Shown here one piece after another: positions 45,958 through 56,041 of a stretch of 64,000 bases of DNA (position 1 is its first letter; each line of letters opens with the position of its first letter). This DNA comes from Trypanosoma brucei (lineage: Eukaryota). Under the pieces are notes generated by a model that did no database searches, had not been told where the DNA came from, and was given only the letters and a program-made list of their open reading frames with translations. The stretch is from positions 512,001 to 576,000 of the forward strand of contig CP000068.1 of NCBI GenBank assembly GCA_000002445.1, given 5' to 3'. The position numbers and the translations under genes were made by a program.

Positions 45958-47853
45958 ATGTTCCGTCGTGCGATTCCCCTACTCTCTGCGAACATCCCGC
46001 GCAGCGTGTGGGATCCCGCACAGCACAACCCCAACTGGTCCGACAGCTACGGTCACGACATAACTAACCGACGAGCGTGGCCGGCGAGGAAGTGGACGGT
46101 TGGTCTGGAACCTTGCACTCCTCGGGAGTGGCTTCAGTTCTCACACCGCAATCTCGCTTATGCGTACAACGGAGCTCTCCGTGCGTGTCATTCGCTGCCG
46201 TCGATGCTTCTCTTGTATAAGGAGATGAAGCAGCGCGGAGTGAAGGTCGACGTTGACACCATGAATGTGTTGCTAACGCGCGCTGCCCGCCATGAGCATA
46301 TTCAAGTAGATGACGTGTTCCTGCTATTCGACGAGCTAGTGGCGCTGGGCGCGCGGCCAGATCTTGCTGCTGCTGAGACATTGCACACTGTGCTCAGCCA
46401 CAGTGCGTCGATGCCTGAGGAGTGGCGTGAGGCCCGACGGCTGCAACTTGTTGAGCTATACAATAATCTGGCGATGGAGGAGGTTGAACGCCTGGCACCA
46501 CACCGTGCGGATCGGCTACTGAAAGAGCAAATGAAGCGGTTTCGTGGCAACCTGCAGCAGCTTGGTTCTGGGCTCCGTCCCACTGTGTACTGCCGCTACT
46601 TACACACCACGCATACGGCTGCAGTGCTTCTTGAGGAGGTGCACAATTTCCTGTGGGAGCTTGTCCCAAATGACCACCCCGCAATGGAAATTCCCGCCCT
46701 GCAGTTGCGTGTTCCGTTCGTTGCATCTGTATTGAGACGTCCATCAGTTAATCCCGGCGTTTCATTAGCATCTGTGAGTCGTGCGGAGTTTGGGGACACG
46801 GATGTGTGTGCCGTTTTTCTTGCAGCCGCGGAGCGCATGGTGGACGCGGATTTTGATGACCAACGGCCTGTGTCTGAGCGCCGCTTGTTCCTCTCTCTTC
46901 TGACAATGATTTCATACAGTGGTGTTTTGTATACATCTGACCTCATGGCACAACTAATGGAGATGGTGAAGTACAGCAATAATGACGAGACACGAGACTC
47001 GGACGCGCAACGTGTGCTGCGGTATGCACTGCGCGGCTCTAGTGCGGCACAAGACAGTGCAAGCCGTACTCTATGGCACAGTGTGGAAAAAGTTGCTGAC
47101 TGCCGCGTTGTTGGGCGCTATATTGGGGCACGCAACCCATGGAATCCTATCCGTGTCTGCTTTGACGAGCAAGGTGTATTTAAGGCTTACCCAATCTCCA
47201 CCACTACTACTACAAGGGAAGTGTCCCCACCTGAGGGTAGCAGTGCGGTGACACAGGAGCAGCGCGCCTCATGTGTGGAAGGTCGGACTCTGGAGGCACT
47301 GAACATGCGATGGGATGATGTGCGGCGTCTTATTGAGTGTACCGGTGTCTTGGTGACGCCGCCATCGGAGCGGTGCCCACAACAGCAGAAAATGGAGGTC
47401 TTCACTGGAATGGCTGTGTATCTGCGCACTGTTGCTACAGGGCGACGGTATGAGGGTGGAGAAGATGTGCTGAGTGATGGTGCCGTAGCCACTTCATCAT
47501 GTGAGCAGCGTCGGCGTGGGACCCTGTTCGCTGAAGGTTATGACTTTGATGTATGGGTTCGACTCTTCTCGCTTGTGCAAGAAGTCCGGCATGATATGGA
47601 AAAGTTCATGGCAGATCATACTCTGCAGTGTGTGGAACCCGAGTTCGAGTGCTGGGAAGCGCTGCTTGTCACGCTTCGGTGCGCCTTAGACTTTTGCGTG
47701 GTGCAGATGCAAGGTGGTGGTGCGCGTGGTACTGAACGTGAGGTGGTGGAGAGGTTGTTTCGGGACGTTGTGGCACTCCGTGAGGAATTAATTGAGGAGA
47801 GCCGTACACGATTCGGAGGGCGGATGCGGGTGCTCTGGCTACAGGAGGCATGA
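45958..47853 (+). CDS. pentatricopeptide-repeat (PPR)-like protein, probable mitochondrial
   Basis: It is ATG-initiated. The N-terminus MFRRAIPLLSANIPRSVW looks like a presequence. Clear PPR-type units follow: SMLLLYKEMKQRGVKVD / VDTMNVLLTRAARHEHIQVDDVFLLFDELVALGARPD / LAAAETLHTVL. Confidence 0.55.
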   Translation: MFRRAIPLLSANIPRSVWDPAQHNPNWSDSYGHDITNRRAWPARKWTVGLEPCTPREWLQFSHRNLAYAYNGALRACHSLPSMLLLYKEMKQRGVKVDVDTMNVLLTRAARHEHIQVDDVFLLFDELVALGARPDLAAAETLHTVLSHSASMPEEWREARRLQLVELYNNLAMEEVERLAPHRADRLLKEQMKRFRGNLQQLGSGLRPTVYCRYLHTTHTAAVLLEEVHNFLWELVPNDHPAMEIPALQLRVPFVASVLRRPSVNPGVSLASVSRAEFGDTDVCAVFLAAAERMVDADFDDQRPVSERRLFLSLLTMISYSGVLYTSDLMAQLMEMVKYSNNDETRDSDAQRVLRYALRGSSAAQDSASRTLWHSVEKVADCRVVGRYIGARNPWNPIRVCFDEQGVFKAYPISTTTTTREVSPPEGSSAVTQEQRASCVEGRTLEALNMRWDDVRRLIECTGVLVTPPSERCPQQQKMEVFTGMAVYLRTVATGRRYEGGEDVLSDGAVATSSCEQRRRGTLFAEGYDFDVWVRLFSLVQEVRHDMEKFMADHTLQCVEPEFECWEALLVTLRCALDFCVVQMQGGGARGTEREVVERLFRDVVALREELIEESRTRFGGRMRVLWLQEA

Positions 47854-48297: not shown

Positions 48298-48669
48298 ATG
48301 GTGAACCTGCATGAGCTGGGAGGGCAGCAAGGCTGCGGGGGACCTCAATTTACTCCTGTGGGAGTGTCGTTGACACCGCTGTTGCAGTATTTCTCGCTGC
48401 TCGTTCATGTAGTTGGAAAGCTACCCGGATTTGCTGCCGGGTTCGTGACCGTGTGGCTAGTTTACATTATGTTTATAGGGCGTGATGTGCTTTTGAACAC
48501 GTGCGTTCCTGTTGCTGGGTTCCACATTACTGCACTGTTACTGCTGCGTGAACTATTGACACCATGGCAGGAAGGAATAGCTGGGGCTGCTGAGGTACGT
48601 CGGCGTGTGGCAGCACAGAGGTCGTTTGTGCGGGATGTGCAGTTACAATGGGGAGCAAAACTCGATTGA
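48298..48669 (+). CDS. small hydrophobic hypothetical protein
   Basis: The track ORF opens with GTG 48235; the first ATG is 48298. A poly-Y tract at 48170-48226 precedes it. It has two or three predicted transmembrane segments. The call is weak. Confidence 0.25.
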   Translation: MVNLHELGGQQGCGGPQFTPVGVSLTPLLQYFSLLVHVVGKLPGFAAGFVTVWLVYIMFIGRDVLLNTCVPVAGFHITALLLLRELLTPWQEGIAGAAEVRRRVAAQRSFVRDVQLQWGAKLD

Positions 48670-48904
48670 CAGTCATGGAGGTGGACATTACATGTGTTAG
48701 TGGTGTGGCTTTCTTTTAGGTGATGCCCTGCACCCTTTCCATTGCACAGTGTGCAAAAGAGTGATATTTTTCAGGTACTGCTGTTGTTATTGTTGTTCCG
48801 CTATGGATTGAGTGCTTGTGAGCAGCGGCACCTGGCTACGCAGGATTGTGAGAGCAGTGTGCTTACCCTTATAGTCACTGTTTGTATATAATTATGCACT
48901 CGTG

Positions 48905-51750
48905 TGTGTATGTGTGTGTGCTATTGATGTGCTTGCTTCCAACAACACTCGTTCTGTCTACCTTTGTTTACTCTTGTTAGACTCTCGAAGCGATTACCGT
49001 GCAATATTTCGTTGATAACAAGGTGGAATGATGTGTACCGCAACCGTTATGAGGACTCCCTCTGCGGTTTTGTGCCTGCTGCTTGCGGCAACCCTGACTC
49101 TCAGCACTCCCGTTGCCGTTCGCGGGGAAGTGCTTAAGGATGCGACCCCTACAGTTGTGACAGTCTGGTATAACGCCACGAGCGGCGGTTTCTATGCTAC
49201 GGATGGTCTTGCATCTGGTAAGTATGCTGCAATCGTGAATGTGAGTAACACTTTCAACAAGACCGGTTGGGACGTTGTGACTGCTGTGGCAAACGATGGT
49301 TTCATGCATTTGCCTGGAGAAGCGGAACCGTCAGCAGAGCGCGTGCTACTGGCATACAAGGCTGTAGGTTTTGGTGAAGGCTACGCCACGTATGAGAGCA
49401 TGAAGGCTTCCATAAACAATACGTTTGAGGGTCCTGAGGGTCTCTCTGCGCTTTTGTCTGATGCGCCGCAGGCACAACACTGGATTGAAGAGCACGTTCG
49501 GTATATGGACGCTGCGAAGTTCGAGAGCAGTGCATTCTACACCCAGCTGCGAAACATGTTAGCTCTCATTGATGGTATGGTTGCTGGTTACAACGCTCGT
49601 GCCCCTGCTGACGAACGGTTGGATCGGATGAAGCTGTTAATGTACAACATGCAAGCAGAGATTGGTGACATTGTGAGGGCCACATCCCCTGCGGAGGTAT
49701 TGGATGATATGCGTCAGATGATGCCGCGGTGGTTTGTTGACACCCACTGTTCTGCCTTTGTAAAGGTCGTAAAGGATGACATCTACTTTGGTCACGCCAC
49801 GTGGAGCAGCTTCAATACTATGTTGAGGCAGTACAAAACGTATGCCTTCGGCGGGCGCTTCGTTACCATGTCATCTTACCCAGGTTTGGCGCACAGTGTG
49901 GATGATTGGTACATGACACACAAGCGCCTCGCAGTCATGGAGACCACCAACGTCATACACAATGCAACGCTGCTGCGCAACCATGTCGGTTCCTCTAGCG
50001 TGGCTACGTTTCTGCGTGCGATGATCGCGAACTTCATTGCGGTGGACGCCCCCTCATGGGTGTCGAACTTCAGCAGGGAAAGCAGTGGGGCGTACAACAA
50101 TCAGTGGATGGTGCTCAACATGGGTGCAGTGGAGTCCGAGGCGATGTTTAAAAACATGGCACCCAACACCTTTTGGGTGTTAGAGCAGCTCCCTGGTACT
50201 GCTCCTCCGTTGGGTATAACATCTAAGGATATGACCAGCGTGCTGAACACCACTGGGTACTGGGCGAGTTATAACAGACCGTACTTCCCCAATGTGTACA
50301 ATCTTTCAGGTACGCTGAAGATGCAGGAGGAATACGGTGACTTCTATTCTTACAAGAATTACTCACGCGCCCGGATATTTGAACGTGATCAGGGTTCTGT
50401 GGTCGATATTGAAAGCATGAAGAGGCTGATGCGTTACAACAACTACACGAAAGACCCATTTTCTCTTATTCCCAACTGCACTGGTGCTGTTGGTATGGAT
50501 GACGATGGTAATGTGACTAATGTCTGCAAGCCTCCATACAGTGCGATGCTTTCAATCGCAGCACGTGGTGATTTGAACCCTCCTGGTAATGCGACCGAGT
50601 ACGGCCCACTTGTCCGAAGTGTAGGACACGTAAATAGTGGAGCTATCGATGCAAAGATAGCGACGTGGACGGGGATGGTGAAGAATCCTGAAAGTTATAC
50701 TGCTCATGTTGTCTGTGGCCCGACGACCGATAATCAACCACCGTTTCAGTGGGTGGACGGCATGTTCGATCCCATGCCCCCAACATATGGGTTGCTGAAA
50801 TTGTATAACTTTAGCTTCGTAGTCATGGAGACGCCGATCCGACCTTCCGGTGGTAGTAATAGTTGGAGGAGCACTGGCATCATTGCTGTTGTGGCGGCGC
50901 TGGTTGTGGGTGTGATTGCCGTCGTCCTCATGCGTCCGAGGCGGCGTACCGAAGAGGATGAACTTCTTCCCGAAGAGGCTGAAGGTCTTATAGATCCTCA
51001 GAACTAGAAGCTATGATAATGACGCACTTACCTCTCCTCTCTTCCCGAGGTGTAGATATTGCTGAACTGATGTGATGTGCGGTGGGGAGCTGAGAGGTGC
51101 ACCAGATGCAATGTACCAATGCTTTAAATGAACATTGTGTCTCCTCTGCTATGTAGGTAGTAGTTTTTATACTTGAGGGAGTAGCGTGTCTGTGTGTGGT
51201 TGCTCTGTGCTTGAAAGGGAGTGTGATGAGCGCTCCGGTTCCCGCAGAATCGGTTACAACTAAGGTAACTCTCTCCCTGATTTTGCTTGCTTCCTACGGG
51301 GATTCATATGAGGCCCGTAATGACGGAAAAAGAAGGTGCGAGAAAGAATGGTAAGTGTAAAAAATGGGAATGGTAATAAGCGATGGATGTAGGAAGTGAG
51401 GTGTATAGGAATAGAAGAGATGAATGTGCCCGCGCGTGAATATGTTGTGGTGGTACCAGCGATGTGGCATGTAGTGTTGGGGCGCAGTGTAGAGAAAGGA
51501 AGAGATCAGTTGCCGCATAGTTGATGCAGCACTCCTCCCCATATCTTCTACATCCTCCTCTAGTCGTACGTTAACGCGTGGTGATTCCCTCGCATGCCAT
51601 TGCCGCTGTTGCCAGTGCTGTGTTCCGTCCGTTCTGTGCGTCCCGTGAGTAATACACGGCGTAGTGTTGCATTGTTTTTGTTTTTGTTTTTGCTTACCTT
51701 CCTTTTGTTCCAACGCACATTCCAATGCGTGTGTTTTTTTCGTGTAGCGA
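48905..51750 (+). repeat. direct duplication, copy A (about 2.85 kb: 5' flank, p67 CDS and about 740 bp of 3' flank)
   Basis: It is near-identical to 52975-55818, with an offset of 4070 bp that becomes 4076 after a 6-bp indel. Outside the cassette the p67 coding region differs only by one substitution (49151 A vs 53221 G, giving T41A); the flanks were compared only at their boundaries. The exception is a replaced cassette at 50836-50952 vs 54906-55028. Confidence 0.9.
49028..51007 (+). CDS. p67: lysosomal/endosomal type I membrane glycoprotein p67 (phospholipase-B-like family), copy 1
   Basis: The layout is a signal peptide (MMCTATVMRTPSAVLCLLLAATLTLS), a large lumenal domain with many N-x-S/T sequons, a single C-terminal transmembrane helix (IIAVVAALVVGVIAVVL) and a short cytosolic tail RPRRRTEEDELLPEEAEGLIDPQN. 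The tail has two acidic di-leucine-type motifs. This matches what I recall of T. brucei p67. Confidence 0.8.
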   Translation: MMCTATVMRTPSAVLCLLLAATLTLSTPVAVRGEVLKDATPTVVTVWYNATSGGFYATDGLASGKYAAIVNVSNTFNKTGWDVVTAVANDGFMHLPGEAEPSAERVLLAYKAVGFGEGYATYESMKASINNTFEGPEGLSALLSDAPQAQHWIEEHVRYMDAAKFESSAFYTQLRNMLALIDGMVAGYNARAPADERLDRMKLLMYNMQAEIGDIVRATSPAEVLDDMRQMMPRWFVDTHCSAFVKVVKDDIYFGHATWSSFNTMLRQYKTYAFGGRFVTMSSYPGLAHSVDDWYMTHKRLAVMETTNVIHNATLLRNHVGSSSVATFLRAMIANFIAVDAPSWVSNFSRESSGAYNNQWMVLNMGAVESEAMFKNMAPNTFWVLEQLPGTAPPLGITSKDMTSVLNTTGYWASYNRPYFPNVYNLSGTLKMQEEYGDFYSYKNYSRARIFERDQGSVVDIESMKRLMRYNNYTKDPFSLIPNCTGAVGMDDDGNVTNVCKPPYSAMLSIAARGDLNPPGNATEYGPLVRSVGHVNSGAIDAKIATWTGMVKNPESYTAHVVCGPTTDNQPPFQWVDGMFDPMPPTYGLLKLYNFSFVVMETPIRPSGGSNSWRSTGIIAVVAALVVGVIAVVLMRPRRRTEEDELLPEEAEGLIDPQN

Positions 51751-51965
51751 AGTGAATTCTCTCCCCCTCGAGTGGTGTGGGAGGACGACTGAGTGCCTTT
51801 CTTTGTGTGCTCAGAAGCCCATGTACCCCATTGTATTGGCTGTGCCGCTACTTTTGTACGGGTTGCATGCATGAGCAAATATATATCCCCTTTTCTTCGC
51901 CTCTAATTTGCATGGAAGTGGAACGAGCACATTTCACTCACACAAGGATTTGATTAAAGGAAGAA

Positions 51966-52289
51966 ATGTCGCAGCAGCTTGCATGCACATACGCCTCCTT
52001 GATACTCTCTGGCAGCGGGAATGTTGACGCCGCGAAGCTGCTTGCCGTAACAAATGCTGCTGGCGTTACTGTCAGTAAAGGTATGGCAGAAGCTTTTGCC
52101 TCAATTCTTGGTGGTATTTCCATTGATGAGGTTCTTGGCAATATTGCGTTCGGTGGTGGTGCGCCTGTTGCGTCTAGTGGAGGCGCCGCTGCTGCTGCTC
52201 CTGCCGCCGGTGGCGCACCTGCTGCCGCTGCTCCTGCAAAGGAGGAAGAGGAAGATGATGATGATATGGGCTTCGGTCTTTTTGACTAA
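51966..52289 (+). CDS. 60S acidic ribosomal stalk protein, P1/P2 family (most like P1)
   Basis: This 107-aa ORF has the P1-like N-terminus QQLACTYASLIL...AAGV. A flexible Ala/Gly/Pro hinge follows. The invariant stalk C-terminus is EEEEDDDDMGFGLFD. Confidence 0.88.
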   Translation: MSQQLACTYASLILSGSGNVDAAKLLAVTNAAGVTVSKGMAEAFASILGGISIDEVLGNIAFGGGAPVASSGGAAAAAPAAGGAPAAAAPAKEEEEDDDDMGFGLFD

Positions 52290-52974
52290 GCGCGCTCCTA
52301 GCAGTGTGATTGTTGCTCGCACAGAAAGAGAGTTTGTTTCATTCCTTTTTTTAATTTTTATTTGTTCTTTGTTTTCAAGTAACTGGTACACGCTGTGGCC
52401 ACCCTGTTGACAGTTTAAAAAAAAACCTATTGTGTTTTAGTGTATGTTTTGTTTTGCAAACACGAAACGCTGCTTTCTAAAAAAAAAAATCACTTTTAGC
52501 ACCTTTTAAACGACACCTCCTATCACTCTCCAGTAAGGCAAAAAGATAGAAGATATATAATGGCGATCATACACCTGGTGGCTTTCTTTTCAAAGACTTT
52601 GCGTATCAGTTAATTACGTTTACGACATGACGTCTTTGCGAGTGCAACCTACTTGTTGGGTAAGTGTGCACTTGGCTGTTTTTGCTTATCGGTTCTTGTA
52701 TTGTGTTTAAAGGGCAGTGCCTCTGATGTCAGAATGTGTGGTGTGTGTTGCTGTGATCCGTCATCATACGCTACAGTTTTGTATGGTCGATGGCCGTATT
52801 TATGTACAGTAAAGAAAATGTGAGCGATGTCTGCAATATTATTTACTGGATACTCTGCCCAAGTGCTGTTTGTGGACGTGATTCTATGATGTTTGTAAAC
52901 TGTTAATTGTCGCTGTCACTAACCGTACATAATGCTCTACTGTGTGGACACGCTTGTTTACTCTAGTGTGTATG

Positions 52975-55818
52975 CGTGTATGTGTGTGTGCTATTGATGT
53001 GCTTGCTTCCAACAACACTCGTTCTGTCTACCTTTGTTTACTCTTGTTAGACTCTCGAAGCGATTACCGTGCAATATTTCGTTGATAACAAGGTGGAATG
53101 ATGTGTACCGCAACCGTTATGAGGACTCCCTCTGCGGTTTTGTGCCTGCTGCTTGCGGCAACCCTGACTCTCAGCACTCCCGTTGCCGTTCGCGGGGAAG
53201 TGCTTAAGGATGCGACCCCTGCAGTTGTGACAGTCTGGTATAACGCCACGAGCGGCGGTTTCTATGCTACGGATGGTCTTGCATCTGGTAAGTATGCTGC
53301 AATCGTGAATGTGAGTAACACTTTCAACAAGACCGGTTGGGACGTTGTGACTGCTGTGGCAAACGATGGTTTCATGCATTTGCCTGGAGAAGCGGAACCG
53401 TCAGCAGAGCGCGTGCTACTGGCATACAAGGCTGTAGGTTTTGGTGAAGGCTACGCCACGTATGAGAGCATGAAGGCTTCCATAAACAATACGTTTGAGG
53501 GTCCTGAGGGTCTCTCTGCGCTTTTGTCTGATGCGCCGCAGGCACAACACTGGATTGAAGAGCACGTTCGGTATATGGACGCTGCGAAGTTCGAGAGCAG
53601 TGCATTCTACACCCAGCTGCGAAACATGTTAGCTCTCATTGATGGTATGGTTGCTGGTTACAACGCTCGTGCCCCTGCTGACGAACGGTTGGATCGGATG
53701 AAGCTGTTAATGTACAACATGCAAGCAGAGATTGGTGACATTGTGAGGGCCACATCCCCTGCGGAGGTATTGGATGATATGCGTCAGATGATGCCGCGGT
53801 GGTTTGTTGACACCCACTGTTCTGCCTTTGTAAAGGTCGTAAAGGATGACATCTACTTTGGTCACGCCACGTGGAGCAGCTTCAATACTATGTTGAGGCA
53901 GTACAAAACGTATGCCTTCGGCGGGCGCTTCGTTACCATGTCATCTTACCCAGGTTTGGCGCACAGTGTGGATGATTGGTACATGACACACAAGCGCCTC
54001 GCAGTCATGGAGACCACCAACGTCATACACAATGCAACGCTGCTGCGCAACCATGTCGGTTCCTCTAGCGTGGCTACGTTTCTGCGTGCGATGATCGCGA
54101 ACTTCATTGCGGTGGACGCCCCCTCATGGGTGTCGAACTTCAGCAGGGAAAGCAGTGGGGCGTACAACAATCAGTGGATGGTGCTCAACATGGGTGCAGT
54201 GGAGTCCGAGGCGATGTTTAAAAACATGGCACCCAACACCTTTTGGGTGTTAGAGCAGCTCCCTGGTACTGCTCCTCCGTTGGGTATAACATCTAAGGAT
54301 ATGACCAGCGTGCTGAACACCACTGGGTACTGGGCGAGTTATAACAGACCGTACTTCCCCAATGTGTACAATCTTTCAGGTACGCTGAAGATGCAGGAGG
54401 AATACGGTGACTTCTATTCTTACAAGAATTACTCACGCGCCCGGATATTTGAACGTGATCAGGGTTCTGTGGTCGATATTGAAAGCATGAAGAGGCTGAT
54501 GCGTTACAACAACTACACGAAAGACCCATTTTCTCTTATTCCCAACTGCACTGGTGCTGTTGGTATGGATGACGATGGTAATGTGACTAATGTCTGCAAG
54601 CCTCCATACAGTGCGATGCTTTCAATCGCAGCACGTGGTGATTTGAACCCTCCTGGTAATGCGACCGAGTACGGCCCACTTGTCCGAAGTGTAGGACACG
54701 TAAATAGTGGAGCTATCGATGCAAAGATAGCGACGTGGACGGGGATGGTGAAGAATCCTGAAAGTTATACTGCTCATGTTGTCTGTGGCCCGACGACCGA
54801 TAATCAACCACCGTTTCAGTGGGTGGACGGCATGTTCGATCCCATGCCCCCAACATATGGGTTGCTGAAATTGTATAACTTTAGCTTCGTAGCCATGGAG
54901 ACGCCGTTTTTTAAAAGCGATGTTGTCGACGTAGTTTGGTGGATTATTTCGGGAATTGGAATAGGAGCTACTATTTTATTACTATCTATTGTTCTTTATT
55001 ATAATACCGAGTGTAGTGTCGGTGTTGATGAGGATGAACTTCTTCCCGAAGAGGCTGAAGGTCTTATAGATCCTCAGAACTAGAAGCTATGATAATGACG
55101 CACTTACCTCTCCTCTCTTCCCGAGGTCTAGATATTGCTGAACTGATGTGATGTGCGGTGGGGAGCTGAGAGGTGCACCAGATGCAATGTACCAATGCTT
55201 TAAATGAACATTGTGTCTCCTCTGCTATGTAGGTAGTAGTTTTTATACTTGAGGGAGTAGCGTGTCTGTGTGTGGTTGCTCTGTGCTTGAAAGGGAGTGT
55301 GATGAGCGCTCCGGTTCCCGCAGAATCGGTTACAACTAAGGTAACTCTCTCCCTGATTTTGCTTGCTTCCTACGGGGATTCATATGAGGCCCGTAATGAC
55401 GGAAAAAGAAGGTGCGAGAAAGAATGGTAAGTGTAAAAAATGGGAATGGTAATAAGCGATGGATGTAGGAAGTGAGGTGTATAGGAATAGAAGAGATGAA
55501 TGTGCCCGCGCGTGAATATGTTGTGGTGGTACCAGCGATGTGGCATGTAGTGTTGGGGCGCAGTGTAGAGAAAGGAAGAGATCAGTTGCCGCATAGTTGA
55601 TGCAGCACTCCTCCCCATATCTTTTACATCCTCCTCTAGTCGTACGTTAACGCGTGGTGATTCCCTCGCATGCCATTGCCGCTGTTGCCAGTGCTGTGTT
55701 CCGTCCGTTCTGTGCGTCCCGTGAGTAATACACGGCGTAGTGTTGCATTGTTTTTGTTTTTGTTTTTGCTTACCTTCCTTTTGTTCCAACGCACATTCCA
55801 ATGCGTGTGTTTTTTAGC
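52975..55818 (+). repeat. direct duplication, copy B
   Basis: See copy A. Confidence 0.9.
53098..55083 (+). CDS. p67: p67 lysosomal membrane glycoprotein, copy 2, with a variant stem/transmembrane cassette
   Basis: It is identical to copy 1 apart from T41A and the segment FFKSDVVDVVWWIISGIGIGATILLLSIVLYYNTECSVGVD replacing IRPSGGSNSWRSTGIIAVVAALVVGVIAVVLMRPRRRTE. The ...EDELLPEEAEGLIDPQN tail is retained. Confidence 0.8.
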   Translation: MMCTATVMRTPSAVLCLLLAATLTLSTPVAVRGEVLKDATPAVVTVWYNATSGGFYATDGLASGKYAAIVNVSNTFNKTGWDVVTAVANDGFMHLPGEAEPSAERVLLAYKAVGFGEGYATYESMKASINNTFEGPEGLSALLSDAPQAQHWIEEHVRYMDAAKFESSAFYTQLRNMLALIDGMVAGYNARAPADERLDRMKLLMYNMQAEIGDIVRATSPAEVLDDMRQMMPRWFVDTHCSAFVKVVKDDIYFGHATWSSFNTMLRQYKTYAFGGRFVTMSSYPGLAHSVDDWYMTHKRLAVMETTNVIHNATLLRNHVGSSSVATFLRAMIANFIAVDAPSWVSNFSRESSGAYNNQWMVLNMGAVESEAMFKNMAPNTFWVLEQLPGTAPPLGITSKDMTSVLNTTGYWASYNRPYFPNVYNLSGTLKMQEEYGDFYSYKNYSRARIFERDQGSVVDIESMKRLMRYNNYTKDPFSLIPNCTGAVGMDDDGNVTNVCKPPYSAMLSIAARGDLNPPGNATEYGPLVRSVGHVNSGAIDAKIATWTGMVKNPESYTAHVVCGPTTDNQPPFQWVDGMFDPMPPTYGLLKLYNFSFVAMETPFFKSDVVDVVWWIISGIGIGATILLLSIVLYYNTECSVGVDEDELLPEEAEGLIDPQN

Positions 55819-56017: not shown

Positions 56018-56041
56018 GTGGCTTTCATTGTGGTGGTGCTA

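What the first reader, a model, noticed from the sequence alone, without database searches (positions are those of the whole stretch)
48905..55818. Tandem p67 duplication whose two copies are identical except for a swapped stem/transmembrane cassette
Blocks 48905-51750 and 52975-55818 are essentially identical, with one substitution in the first 1.8 kb of CDS. This implies recent duplication or ongoing gene conversion. Identity breaks for about 120 bp at 50836-50952 vs 54906-55028. Copy 1 encodes the stem IRPSGGSNSWRS, the transmembrane helix IIAVVAALVVGVIAVVL and the stop-transfer MRPRRRTE. Copy 2 encodes FFKSDVVDVVWWIISGIGIGATILLLSIVLYYNTECSVGVD. It has a different helix and no RRR stop-transfer, and the segment is visibly more AT-rich than its surroundings. 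Identity then resumes exactly, through the di-leucine tail (EDELLPEEAEGLIDPQN) and about 740 bp of 3' flank. A precisely bounded, compositionally distinct replacement inside otherwise homogenised copies looks like a cassette exchange rather than point divergence. It could give two p67 isoforms that differ in membrane anchoring, turnover or sorting.
Basis: partly seen in the sequence, partly recalled or inferred. Interest (0 to 1): 0.7.

Follow-up and report, generated by a model that had tools for sequence, protein, structure and literature searches.

The report
Two p67 genes, two ancient anchors
The two neighbouring Trypanosoma brucei p67 lysosomal-hydrolase genes are kept almost identical by gene conversion except for a ~120-bp stem/transmembrane segment; that difference is already published, and here it proves to be an old two-form system shared with T. 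congolense, not a recent cassette swap.

Summary
Blocks 48903-51740 and 52973-55815 are ~99.8% identical. They carry p67 copy 1 (49028-51007, exactly XP_844855, Tb927.5.1810) and copy 2 (53098-55083, exactly XP_844857, Tb927.5.1830). They differ in a codon-exact island: 50837-50953 (39 codons, GC 59%) versus 54907-55029 (41 codons, GC 33%, GC3 22%).

It is not an assembly artefact. The type-2 island occurs in four independent T. brucei-group assemblies.

It is not a recent cassette exchange. T. congolense has the same two island types at the same position, with the same right-hand neighbours (type 1 then ribosomal P gene; type 2 then the 161-aa gene orthologue). Same-type islands are 65-68% identical between species, like the rest of the gene; cross-type islands are unrelated. 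Either side of the island, the copies are 97-100% identical within each species, non-coding 3' flank included.

So an old duplication evolves in concert, and both anchor modules are retained under purifying selection (omega about 0.2-0.3). T. vivax, T. cruzi, T. rangeli and T. theileri show a single anchor.

Koeller et al. 2020 already state that the paralogues differ only in the TM domain. I found no report of the cross-species conservation or the synonymous AT bias. What the two anchors do differently is untested.

The parts
48903..51740 (+). Repeat block 1: 125 nt of 5' flank, p67 copy 1, and ~733 nt of 3' flank
   Evidence: Self-BLAST and global alignment
52973..55815 (+). Repeat block 2: 125 nt of 5' flank, p67 copy 2, and ~733 nt of 3' flank
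49028..51007 (+). p67 copy 1 CDS (659 aa, type-1 anchor). Identical to XP_844855.1/AAZ11296.1 (Tb927.5.1810). Phospholip_B domain at aa 68-600, C241/S242, 14 sequons.
53098..55083 (+). p67 copy 2 CDS (661 aa, type-2 anchor). Identical to XP_844857.1/AAZ11298.1 (Tb927.5.1830). Same luminal domain features as copy 1.
50837..50953 (+). Type-1 island, 39 codons: IRPSGGSNSWRS stem, 19-21-residue Gly/Ala/Val helix, RPRRR stop-transfer. GC 59%, GC3 0.56. The T. congolense orthologue is 68% identical at the nucleotide level.
54907..55029 (+). Type-2 island, 41 codons: FFKSDVVDVV stem, 24-residue helix VVWWIISGIGIGATILLLSIVLYY, then NTECS with no basic stop-transfer. GC 33%, GC3 0.22. The T. congolense orthologue is 65% identical at the nucleotide level. 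The island is base-identical in T. b. gambiense DAL972.
50954..51007 (+). Shared acidic cytoplasmic tail EDELLPEEAEGLIDPQN plus stop codon, copy 1. Contains two [DE]xxxL[LI] motifs.
55030..55083 (+). Shared acidic cytoplasmic tail plus stop codon, copy 2. Identical to copy 1.
51008..51740 (+). Homogenised 3' flank of copy 1. Three differences from copy 2's flank.
55084..55815 (+). Homogenised 3' flank of copy 2
51966..52289 (+). 107-aa acidic ribosomal P-protein gene inside the unique spacer (51741-52972). It also follows the type-1 copy in T. congolense, so it serves as a positional-orthology marker.
45958..47853 (+). Upstream neighbour (631 aa). Synteny anchor conserved in T. congolense, T. 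vivax and T. theileri.
56018..56503 (+). Downstream neighbour (161 aa). Its orthologue follows the type-2 copy in T. congolense and T. b. gambiense, and follows the single p67 in T. vivax.

Best explanation
The two genes are Tb927.5.1810 and Tb927.5.1830, the known p67 (phospholipase-B-like, NTN-hydrolase) paralogues of T. brucei TREU927 chromosome 5.

They descend from a duplication that predates the T. brucei/T. congolense split. In each lineage, repeated gene conversion or unequal exchange homogenises everything that is still homologous: the luminal domain, the di-leucine tail and ~0.7 kb of 3' flank.

The ~120-bp stem/TM/juxtamembrane module has no homology between the copies. It has been kept in both forms, most likely because selection removes arrays that lose either form.

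The result is one hydrolase domain and one AP-1 sorting tail mounted on two alternative membrane anchors:
- Type 1 has a short 19-21-residue Gly/Ala/Val helix with an RPRRR stop-transfer.
- Type 2 has a longer 24-residue helix with Trp-Trp and Tyr-Tyr belts, no basic stop-transfer, and a conserved juxtamembrane Cys.

Inferred, not shown: the two anchors place or process p67 differently in the endolysosomal membrane system. Candidates are partitioning by membrane thickness, stem cleavage or shedding, and possible acylation.
For: Shown here:
1. Identity. Copy 1 equals P0121 and copy 2 equals P0124 exactly. Pfam Phospholip_B scores E ~1e-157 over aa 68-600. C241/S242, 14 sequons and two di-leucine motifs are present in both copies.
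2. T. congolense IL3000 encodes both tails.
3. Partition test:
- Luminal amino-acid identity is 99.7% (Tb1-Tb2) and 95.5% (Tco1-Tco2), against 67-68% between species.
- The 17-aa tail is 100% identical within species and 65% between.
- The 3' flank is >=96% identical within species and ~45% between.
- The islands show the reverse. Tb1-Tco1 scores 115 (z 14, 68% nt identity) and Tb2-Tco2 scores 103 (z 12, 65% nt identity). Cross-type comparisons are at chance (z 0-2).
4. T. congolense DNA has the same architecture: 97.7% identity, then a ~125-bp break, then 99.1% identity over 697 bp. The downstream boundary falls at the same codon, just before ED[ED].
5. Positional orthology. Type 1 is followed by the ribosomal P gene and type 2 by the 161-aa gene orthologue, in both species and in DAL972.
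6. Age and constraint. Island pS between species is 0.63-0.66, which is saturated like the rest of the gene. Omega is 0.19 (type 1) and 0.29 (type 2). Within-species dS is 0 and 0.03.
7. Outgroups have one tail, always with a basic stop-transfer. The orthogroup table in PMC10361982 lists 2 T. brucei, 9 T. congolense and 1 T. vivax genes.
8. Conversion appears to be ongoing. Residue 599, 14 nt from the island, is V in all type-1 copies but A or V among type-2 alleles of different strains.
9. Helix length (24 versus 20-21 uncharged residues) and the motif LY[YL]Nx[ED]CS are conserved in type 2 of both species.

Literature: the TM-only difference is noted in PMC8053727. Concerted evolution of T. 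brucei tandem arrays is described in PMC1855330.
Against: - No experiment or isoform-resolved expression data distinguishes the two proteins. RNAi screens and proteomics treat them as one.
- Persistence of the island could be partly mechanical, because heterology blocks conversion, rather than selected.
- The T. congolense IL3000 draft is fragmented and probably collapses the array. L001 joins the upstream neighbour directly to a type-2 gene. The exact T. congolense array structure is therefore inferred from two contigs.
- Single copy in T. vivax rests on two assemblies. Loss cannot be told apart from never having had the second copy.
- The island's synonymous AT bias is not explained by this model.
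Confidence: 0.8

Rival explanations
1. Neutral persistence. The two anchors are functionally interchangeable. Both genes are kept for dosage, and the island survives only because a non-homologous block stops heteroduplex extension and mismatch repair rejects tracts that reach it.
For: - The island boundaries coincide with the loss of homology.
- Koeller et al. assume the paralogues have the same activity.
- Omega below 1 is expected for any functional TM anchor, whether or not the two differ.
- Jackson 2007 notes that divergent regions can escape conversion.
Against: - Homology flanks the island on both sides (1.9 kb and 0.8 kb), so tracts or unequal crossovers spanning it should occasionally fix one type.
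- Yet both types survive in two lineages separated by saturated synonymous divergence, and in all four T. brucei-group assemblies examined.
- Type-2-specific features are conserved between species: 24-residue span, WW/Y belts, NxxCS.
Confidence: 0.14
2. Recent cassette exchange. A foreign or ectopic AT-rich segment recently replaced the stem/TM of one of two freshly duplicated genes.
For: - The replacement is sharply bounded and in frame, with anomalous composition.
Against: - An orthologous type-2 island sits at the same position in T. congolense, with 65% nucleotide identity and saturated synonymous sites.
- The AT bias is present in both species, so it is maintained rather than inherited from a donor.
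- No similar sequence occurs elsewhere in the window.
- A profile search with the type-2 tail retrieved no other protein.
- The type-2 helix keeps some resemblance to the p67 helix of T. rangeli, WIGIGIGIGA (z 5.5). This fits divergence in situ.
- An ancient replacement in the common ancestor cannot be excluded.
Confidence: 0.04
3. Assembly chimera or sequencing artefact in the reference.
For: None beyond the general difficulty of assembling near-identical tandem repeats.
Against: - The same island is found in TREU927, DAL972 (base-identical), T. equiperdum OVI and a T. b. equiperdum assembly.
- A diverged orthologue is present in T. congolense.
Confidence: 0.01

Closest known systems
T. brucei p67 paralogues Tb927.5.1810 / Tb927.5.1830 as described by the Bangs laboratory (Koeller et al. 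2020, PMC8053727)
   Same: These are the very genes. [quoted passage not shown] It describes type I topology, 14 N-glycans, a 19-residue TM, a 24-residue cytoplasmic domain with di-leucine motifs, and the C241/S242 junction.
   Different: In the text I read, the paper does not discuss any of the following:
- that the divergent block also covers the stem and the stop-transfer;
- that both forms are conserved in T. congolense;
- that the rest of the gene evolves in concert;
- that the type-2 block has an extreme synonymous AT bias.
All experimental work used the type-1 sequence.
T. brucei phosphoglycerate kinase array (PGKA/B/C) and hexose transporter THT1/THT2 arrays. These are tandem genes homogenised by gene conversion that keep isoform-specific segments (summarised in Jackson 2007, PMC1855330).
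   Same: Tandem paralogues in one polycistron are largely homogenised by conversion. A short retained segment gives isoforms with a different cellular location or role.
   Different: - In PGK the distinguishing element is a C-terminal extension, and the middle gene is a chimaera.
- Here the retained element is an internal, fully non-homologous stem/TM module flanked by homogenised sequence on both sides.
- An unrelated gene (ribosomal P protein) lies between the copies.
- A location difference is proven for PGK and not for p67.
Mammalian PLBD1/PLBD2 and other phospholipase-B-like NTN hydrolases (Pfam PF04916)
   Same: Homologous luminal hydrolase domain, with autocleavage at a Cys/Ser junction and lysosomal residence.
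   Different: Most are soluble. The mammalian paralogues are only ~32% identical to each other and differ throughout. The p67 pair differs only in the anchor.
Concerted evolution with segments that escape conversion: the general model for tandem arrays (Jackson 2007, PMC1855330)
   Same: Conspecific paralogues are more alike than positional orthologues, non-coding flanks are homogenised, and a sub-region keeps cross-species orthology.
   Different: Jackson's survey text does not mention this pair. Here the escaping region is a complete structural module and is totally non-homologous between the copies, rather than merely more divergent.

Membership tests
Phospholipase B-like / NTN hydrolase (PF04916) | Significant full-length match to the Pfam Phospholip_B profile | tested here: met
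   Both copies score E ~1e-157 (523 bits) over aa 68-600, covering profile positions 1-487 of 487.
Phospholipase B-like / NTN hydrolase (PF04916) | Conserved Cys/Ser dipeptide at the alpha/beta autocleavage junction (C241|S242 in p67, per PMC8053727) | tested here: met
   DTHCSAFV, with C241 and S242 in both copies. Definition taken.
Phospholipase B-like / NTN hydrolase (PF04916) | Hydrolase activity and autoproteolytic maturation | not testable with these tools
   Needs biochemistry. According to PMC8053727, the substrate of p67 is still unknown.
T. brucei p67 lysosomal type I membrane glycoprotein | Exact sequence identity to the annotated p67 genes | tested here: met
   Copy 1 equals XP_844855.1 and copy 2 equals XP_844857.1.
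T. brucei p67 lysosomal type I membrane glycoprotein | N-terminal signal sequence, 14 N-glycosylation sequons, one C-terminal TM helix, and an acidic tail with two [DE]xxxL[LI] motifs | tested here: met
   Both copies have 14 sequons, a hydrophobic N-terminus, one hydrophobic span (19-21 or 24 residues), and EEDELL/DEDELL plus EAEGLI. No dedicated TM or signal-peptide predictor was available.
T. brucei p67 lysosomal type I membrane glycoprotein | Lysosomal localisation of the type-2 isoform | not testable with these tools
   Published localisation work used type-1 constructs or antibodies to the shared luminal domain. Spatial proteomics lists only Tb927.5.1810.
Concerted evolution by gene conversion with a conversion-resistant segment | Paralogues within a species are more similar than positional orthologues between species, non-coding flank included | tested here: met
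   99.7% and 95.5% within species against 67-68% between. The 3' flank is >=96% within species against ~45% between.
Concerted evolution by gene conversion with a conversion-resistant segment | Conserved gene order showing that the loci are orthologous | tested here: met
   Type 1 is followed by RibP and type 2 by the 161-aa gene orthologue in T. brucei, T. congolense and DAL972. The left-hand side in T. congolense is ambiguous.
Concerted evolution by gene conversion with a conversion-resistant segment | A sub-region that groups by type across species rather than by species | tested here: met
   Islands: same type z 7-14, cross type z 0-2.
Recent cassette exchange / ectopic replacement | The island is absent from the sister species, or a donor is identifiable elsewhere | tested here: not met
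   The island is present in T. congolense. No donor was found in the window or by protein search. The whole T. brucei genome could not be searched.

The most novel reading that the evidence does not exclude
The type-2 module defines a functionally distinct p67 pool that arose in the ancestor of Trypanozoon and Nannomonas.

Its features are a longer aromatic-belted helix, no basic stop-transfer and a conserved juxtamembrane Cys that could be acylated. Such a pool could sit in a different endolysosomal or flagellar-pocket membrane, or be shed or turned over differently.

In addition, the extreme AT-rich codon island is actively maintained in both species, and it is the only RNA feature distinguishing the two mRNAs over at least 2.8 kb. 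It could act as an isoform-specific control of translation or mRNA stability, for example a stage-specific isoform ratio, despite identical proximal UTRs.
Probability: 0.15. Interest if true: 0.55.

Novelty: already known. Interest (0 to 1): 0.3.

Why it matters
p67 is essential in bloodstream trypanosomes and affects sensitivity to suramin and to human serum lytic factor (PMC8053727, PMC4022737). All trafficking work has used the type-1 anchor.

Both anchors have been kept in two species against constant homogenisation. This argues that the second isoform is not redundant and gives a concrete, cheap experiment: anchor-specific add-backs.

It is also a clean textbook-style case of concerted evolution sparing a whole structural module. 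And it warns that odd base composition is not evidence of a recent foreign insert.

It does not reveal a new kind of system.

Tried and rejected
1. Profile search of the 5.8-billion-protein collection with the aligned type-2 tails, to find other carriers or a donor. Only 2 candidates shared words and none scored, so this was uninformative.
2. Exact look-ups of the TREU927 copy-2 protein in the contig index failed twice, although the cluster table lists it on a 1.6-Mb contig. I used DAL972, T. congolense, T. vivax and T. theileri loci instead.
3. BLAST of both islands against the whole window gave only chance 10-12-mers.
4. The four-way MAFFT alignments (protein, DNA) put the type-2 islands out of register and understated their similarity. 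I replaced them with pairwise alignments and shuffle controls.
5. I considered a GPI-signal reading of the type-2 hydrophobic segment. I rejected it because a 26-residue acidic tail follows the segment.
6. I considered type 1 and type 2 in T. congolense being separately assembled alleles; the phylome paper warns of this. I rejected it because their 3' flanks diverge to different genes after ~640 bp, matching the T. brucei paralogue order.
7. I considered GC-biased gene conversion in the flanks as the cause of the contrast. This is insufficient, because the flanks have ordinary GC3 for this region (0.57 against a window mean of 0.52), whereas the island is abnormally low.
8. The cell-surface phylome and spatial-proteomics papers gave no isoform-level data.
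9. Structure prediction was not used. The island lies outside the folded domain, starting 3 residues after the end of the Pfam match.
Full report
**Observation**

A self-comparison of the window finds two direct repeats, 48903-51740 and 52973-55815, 4070 bp apart. A base-by-base alignment shows 1934 nt at 99.85% identity. That stretch covers 125 nt of 5' flank and the first 603 codons of a 659/661-codon ORF.

Identity then collapses over 50837-50953 in copy 1 (117 nt) and 54907-55029 in copy 2 (123 nt). Both segments start and end exactly on codon boundaries.

Identity resumes through the last 17 codons (EDELLPEEAEGLIDPQN) and the stop, and through ~733 nt of 3' flank with three differences.

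**Composition of the island**

The copy-2 island has 33% GC. That is the minimum of the whole CDS and lower than the intergenic DNA of this window, which is 40-47%.

The bias is synonymous:
- GC3 is 0.22, against 0.51 expected when the same amino acids are drawn from the gene's own codon usage (0 of 5000 simulations reach it).
- The island lies at the 0.1 percentile of 8772 41-codon windows from 15 ORFs of the window.

The copy-1 island is compositionally ordinary (GC3 0.56).

**What the genes are**

Both proteins match Pfam Phospholip_B over aa 68-600 (E ~1e-157). The island therefore begins three residues after the folded domain ends.

Both copies keep the following:
- the C241/S242 autocleavage dipeptide;
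- 14 N-glycosylation sequons;
- two [DE]xxxL[LI] motifs.

Copy 1 is residue-for-residue XP_844855.1 and copy 2 is XP_844857.1 of T. brucei brucei TREU927. These are Tb927.5.1810 and Tb927.5.1830, the two annotated p67 genes on chromosome 5 (PMC4022737 and PMC5790291).

The unique 1.2-kb spacer between the repeats carries a 107-aa acidic ribosomal P-protein gene at 51966-52289.

**Prior knowledge**

[quoted passage not shown] The core observation is therefore already published.

I found no paper that describes the cross-species pattern below. The cell-surface phylome explicitly excluded lysosomal proteins. The main text of Jackson's 2007 survey of tandem arrays does not mention this pair.

**Not an artefact**

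The type-2 tail is present in four independent assemblies:
- TREU927;
- T. equiperdum OVI;
- a T. b. equiperdum assembly;
- T. b. gambiense DAL972, as a gene fragment, where the 123-nt island is base-identical.

**The decisive comparison**

T. congolense IL3000 encodes both tail types:

| Species | Type | Tail |
|---|---|---|
| T. congolense | 1 | ...SRTGIIAIVAALVVGAIAVVLMRPRKDSE-EDDALPEETEGLVDPIE |
| T. congolense | 2 | ...EFDVVWWLISGIGIVCTVVLLIIVLYLNIDCSSKK-EDDALPEETEGLVDPIE |

I split the genes into three parts:

| Part | Within T. brucei | Within T. congolense | Between species |
|---|---|---|---|
| Luminal domain (aa identity) | 99.7% | 95.5% | 67-68% |
| 17-residue tail | 100% | 100% | 65% |
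| 3' flank | >=96% | >=96% | ~45% |

The island behaves the opposite way:

| Island pair | Protein score | z | nt identity |
|---|---|---|---|
| Tb1-Tco1 | 115 | 14 | 68% |
| Tb2-Tco2 | 103 | 12 | 65% |
| Any cross-type pair | - | 0-2 | chance level |

At the DNA level T. congolense repeats the T. brucei architecture. It shows 97.7% identity over 707 bp, a ~125-bp non-homologous gap, then 99.1% identity over 697 bp. The downstream boundary falls at the same codon, immediately before ED[ED].

The right-hand neighbours are conserved by type. Type 1 is followed by the ribosomal P gene. Type 2 is followed by the orthologue of the 161-aa gene at 56018-56503. This holds in T. brucei, T. congolense and DAL972.

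**Age and constraint**

Between the two species, synonymous differences in the islands are saturated (pS 0.63-0.66), as in the rest of the gene (0.73-0.78).

Omega is 0.19 for type 1, 0.29 for type 2 and 0.09 for the luminal domain.

Within species, dS is 0 in T. brucei and 0.03 in T. congolense.

Each island type is therefore at least as old as the speciation and is under purifying selection. Everything around the island is continually homogenised.

Residue 599, 14 nt upstream of the island, is V in every type-1 copy. In type-2 alleles it is A (TREU927, OVI) or V (T. b. equiperdum, DAL972). This looks like conversion tracts ending at slightly different points in different strains.

**Outgroups**

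T. vivax and T. theileri each carry a single p67 at the syntenic locus.

The following sequences all show one tail type, always with a basic stop-transfer:
- two T. vivax assemblies;
- eight T. cruzi entries;
- two T. rangeli entries;
- T. conorhini;
- T. cruzi marinkellei.

The published orthogroup table lists 2 T. brucei, 9 T. congolense and 1 T. vivax genes (PMC10361982 supplement).

Type 1 is the closer of the two to the outgroup tails (z 5-7 against T. cruzi, T. vivax and T. rangeli). Type 2 is similar only to some of them: T. rangeli WIGIGIGIGA at z 5.5, but T. cruzi and T. vivax at z ~1.4.

Type 2 is therefore the derived form. It arose after T. vivax branched off, or was lost there. 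Whether it arose by rapid divergence in place or by an ancient replacement cannot be decided here.

The sharp boundaries are where homology ends, so they are also where conversion ends. They are not the scars of a recent insertion.

Synonymous sites have turned over completely since the two species split. The AT-richness therefore cannot be a memory of a foreign donor.

It recurs in the T. congolense type-2 island: GC 37%, GC3 0.37 against 0.67 expected, 0 of 5000 simulations. It must be maintained by some local force.

GC-biased conversion in the flanks does not explain it. The flanks have ordinary GC3 for this region while the island is abnormally low. This remains unexplained.

**How it most likely works**

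Shown: one hydrolase domain and one di-leucine sorting tail are combined with two alternative anchors that both species retain.

Conserved physical differences:

| Feature | Type 1 | Type 2 | Outgroups |
|---|---|---|---|
| Uncharged span | 20-21 residues | 24 residues | 23 residues |
| Helix character | Gly/Ala/Val-rich | Trp-Trp at the luminal end, Tyr at the cytoplasmic end | - |
| After the helix | RPR(R/K) | Nx[ED]CS with a conserved Cys; no basic cluster in T. brucei | basic stop-transfer |
| Stem | Flexible Gly/Ser/Pro | Hydrophobic and acidic | - |

Inferred: the anchors influence one or more of the following.
- Which membrane or domain the enzyme occupies. TM length is a known sorting determinant in eukaryotes; this rests on my own knowledge.
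- How readily the luminal domain is cut from the membrane. The C-termini of the processed fragments are unknown, according to PMC8053727.
- Whether the protein is acylated.

Published trafficking data show that p67 sorting is stage-dependent. It needs the cytoplasmic di-leucines in procyclics but not in bloodstream forms. A TM-dependent route is therefore plausible.

None of this has been tested for type 2. A neutral alternative stays open at roughly 0.14: heterology merely blocks conversion and the anchors are equivalent.

**Comparison with known systems**

The pattern is a member of a well-known kind: concerted evolution of trypanosome tandem genes with a segment that escapes it (PMC1855330).

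The closest analogy is the PGK array, where conversion-homogenised tandem genes keep the short element that makes one isoform glycosomal.

It differs in three respects. The spared element is an internal, completely non-homologous structural module. That module is bracketed by homogenised sequence. An unrelated gene sits between the copies.

**Verdict**

The gene pair and its TM-only difference are already known.

The 'recent duplication / cassette exchange' reading is wrong. The 'two anchoring isoforms' reading is strengthened by conservation across two species.

Modest new points:
- the trans-species dimorphism;
- the conserved type-2 features;
- the unexplained synonymous AT island.

Interest is 0.3.

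Noticed in passing
window 59292-62464 (ORF open from 57780 to the window end): A 105-bp unit is repeated 30.2 times at 98% identity. It encodes a 35-aa repeat inside a very long ORF (over 2000 aa) that runs off the 3' end of the window. DAL972 has a 1523-aa gene at the corresponding place.
   Followed up: partly
window 51966-52289; L003 2881-3207; L002 1791-2114: The acidic ribosomal P-protein gene sits between the two p67 copies in T. brucei and after the type-1 copy in T. congolense. In T. vivax it lies three genes upstream, between the pseudouridine synthase and the 433-aa gene. The gene moved, or the duplication unit originally included it.
   Followed up: partly
L002 2738-3382 vs L001 4514-5158 (T. 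congolense IL3000): Sequence downstream of the ribosomal P gene on the type-1 contig is 99.7% identical to the 3' end of the pseudouridine synthase gene plus the upstream region of the 448-aa gene on the type-2 contig. This suggests that the T. congolense duplication unit is larger (448-aa gene, 609-aa gene, p67), or that the draft assembly collapses the array. A published table lists 9 p67 gene models in the long-read IL3000 assembly.
   Followed up: partly
L004 2251-2350 and 9889-9988 (T. b. gambiense DAL972, FN554968.1): The type-2 p67 gene of DAL972 is split into a 224-aa N-terminal fragment and a 364-aa C-terminal fragment. Two 100-N gaps and ~7.5 kb of other sequence lie between them. 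This is probably a scaffolding error in a repeat region.
   Followed up: no
window 50823 / 54893 (codon 599): V599A, 14 nt upstream of the island, is fixed as V in type-1 copies but polymorphic (A or V) among type-2 alleles of different T. brucei-group strains. T. congolense also differs here (V in type 1, T in type 2). The ancient island may once have extended a few codons further upstream and been eroded by conversion.
   Followed up: partly
window 48367-48666: A small ORF between the 631-aa gene and p67 copy 1 is 49% identical to a 119-aa gene called at the same position in T. vivax. A 125-aa gene is called there in T. theileri. It lies just outside the left end of repeat block 1.
   Followed up: no
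window 54907-55029 and L001 11723-11851: The synonymous AT bias of the type-2 island (GC3 0.22 in T. brucei, 0.37 in T. congolense) is maintained in both species although synonymous sites are saturated between them. No explanation tested here accounts for it.
   Followed up: partly
window 51294-51878 (- strand): A 194-aa TTG-start ORF lies antisense to the homogenised 3' flank of copy 1. It is low-complexity and was not examined further.
   Followed up: no
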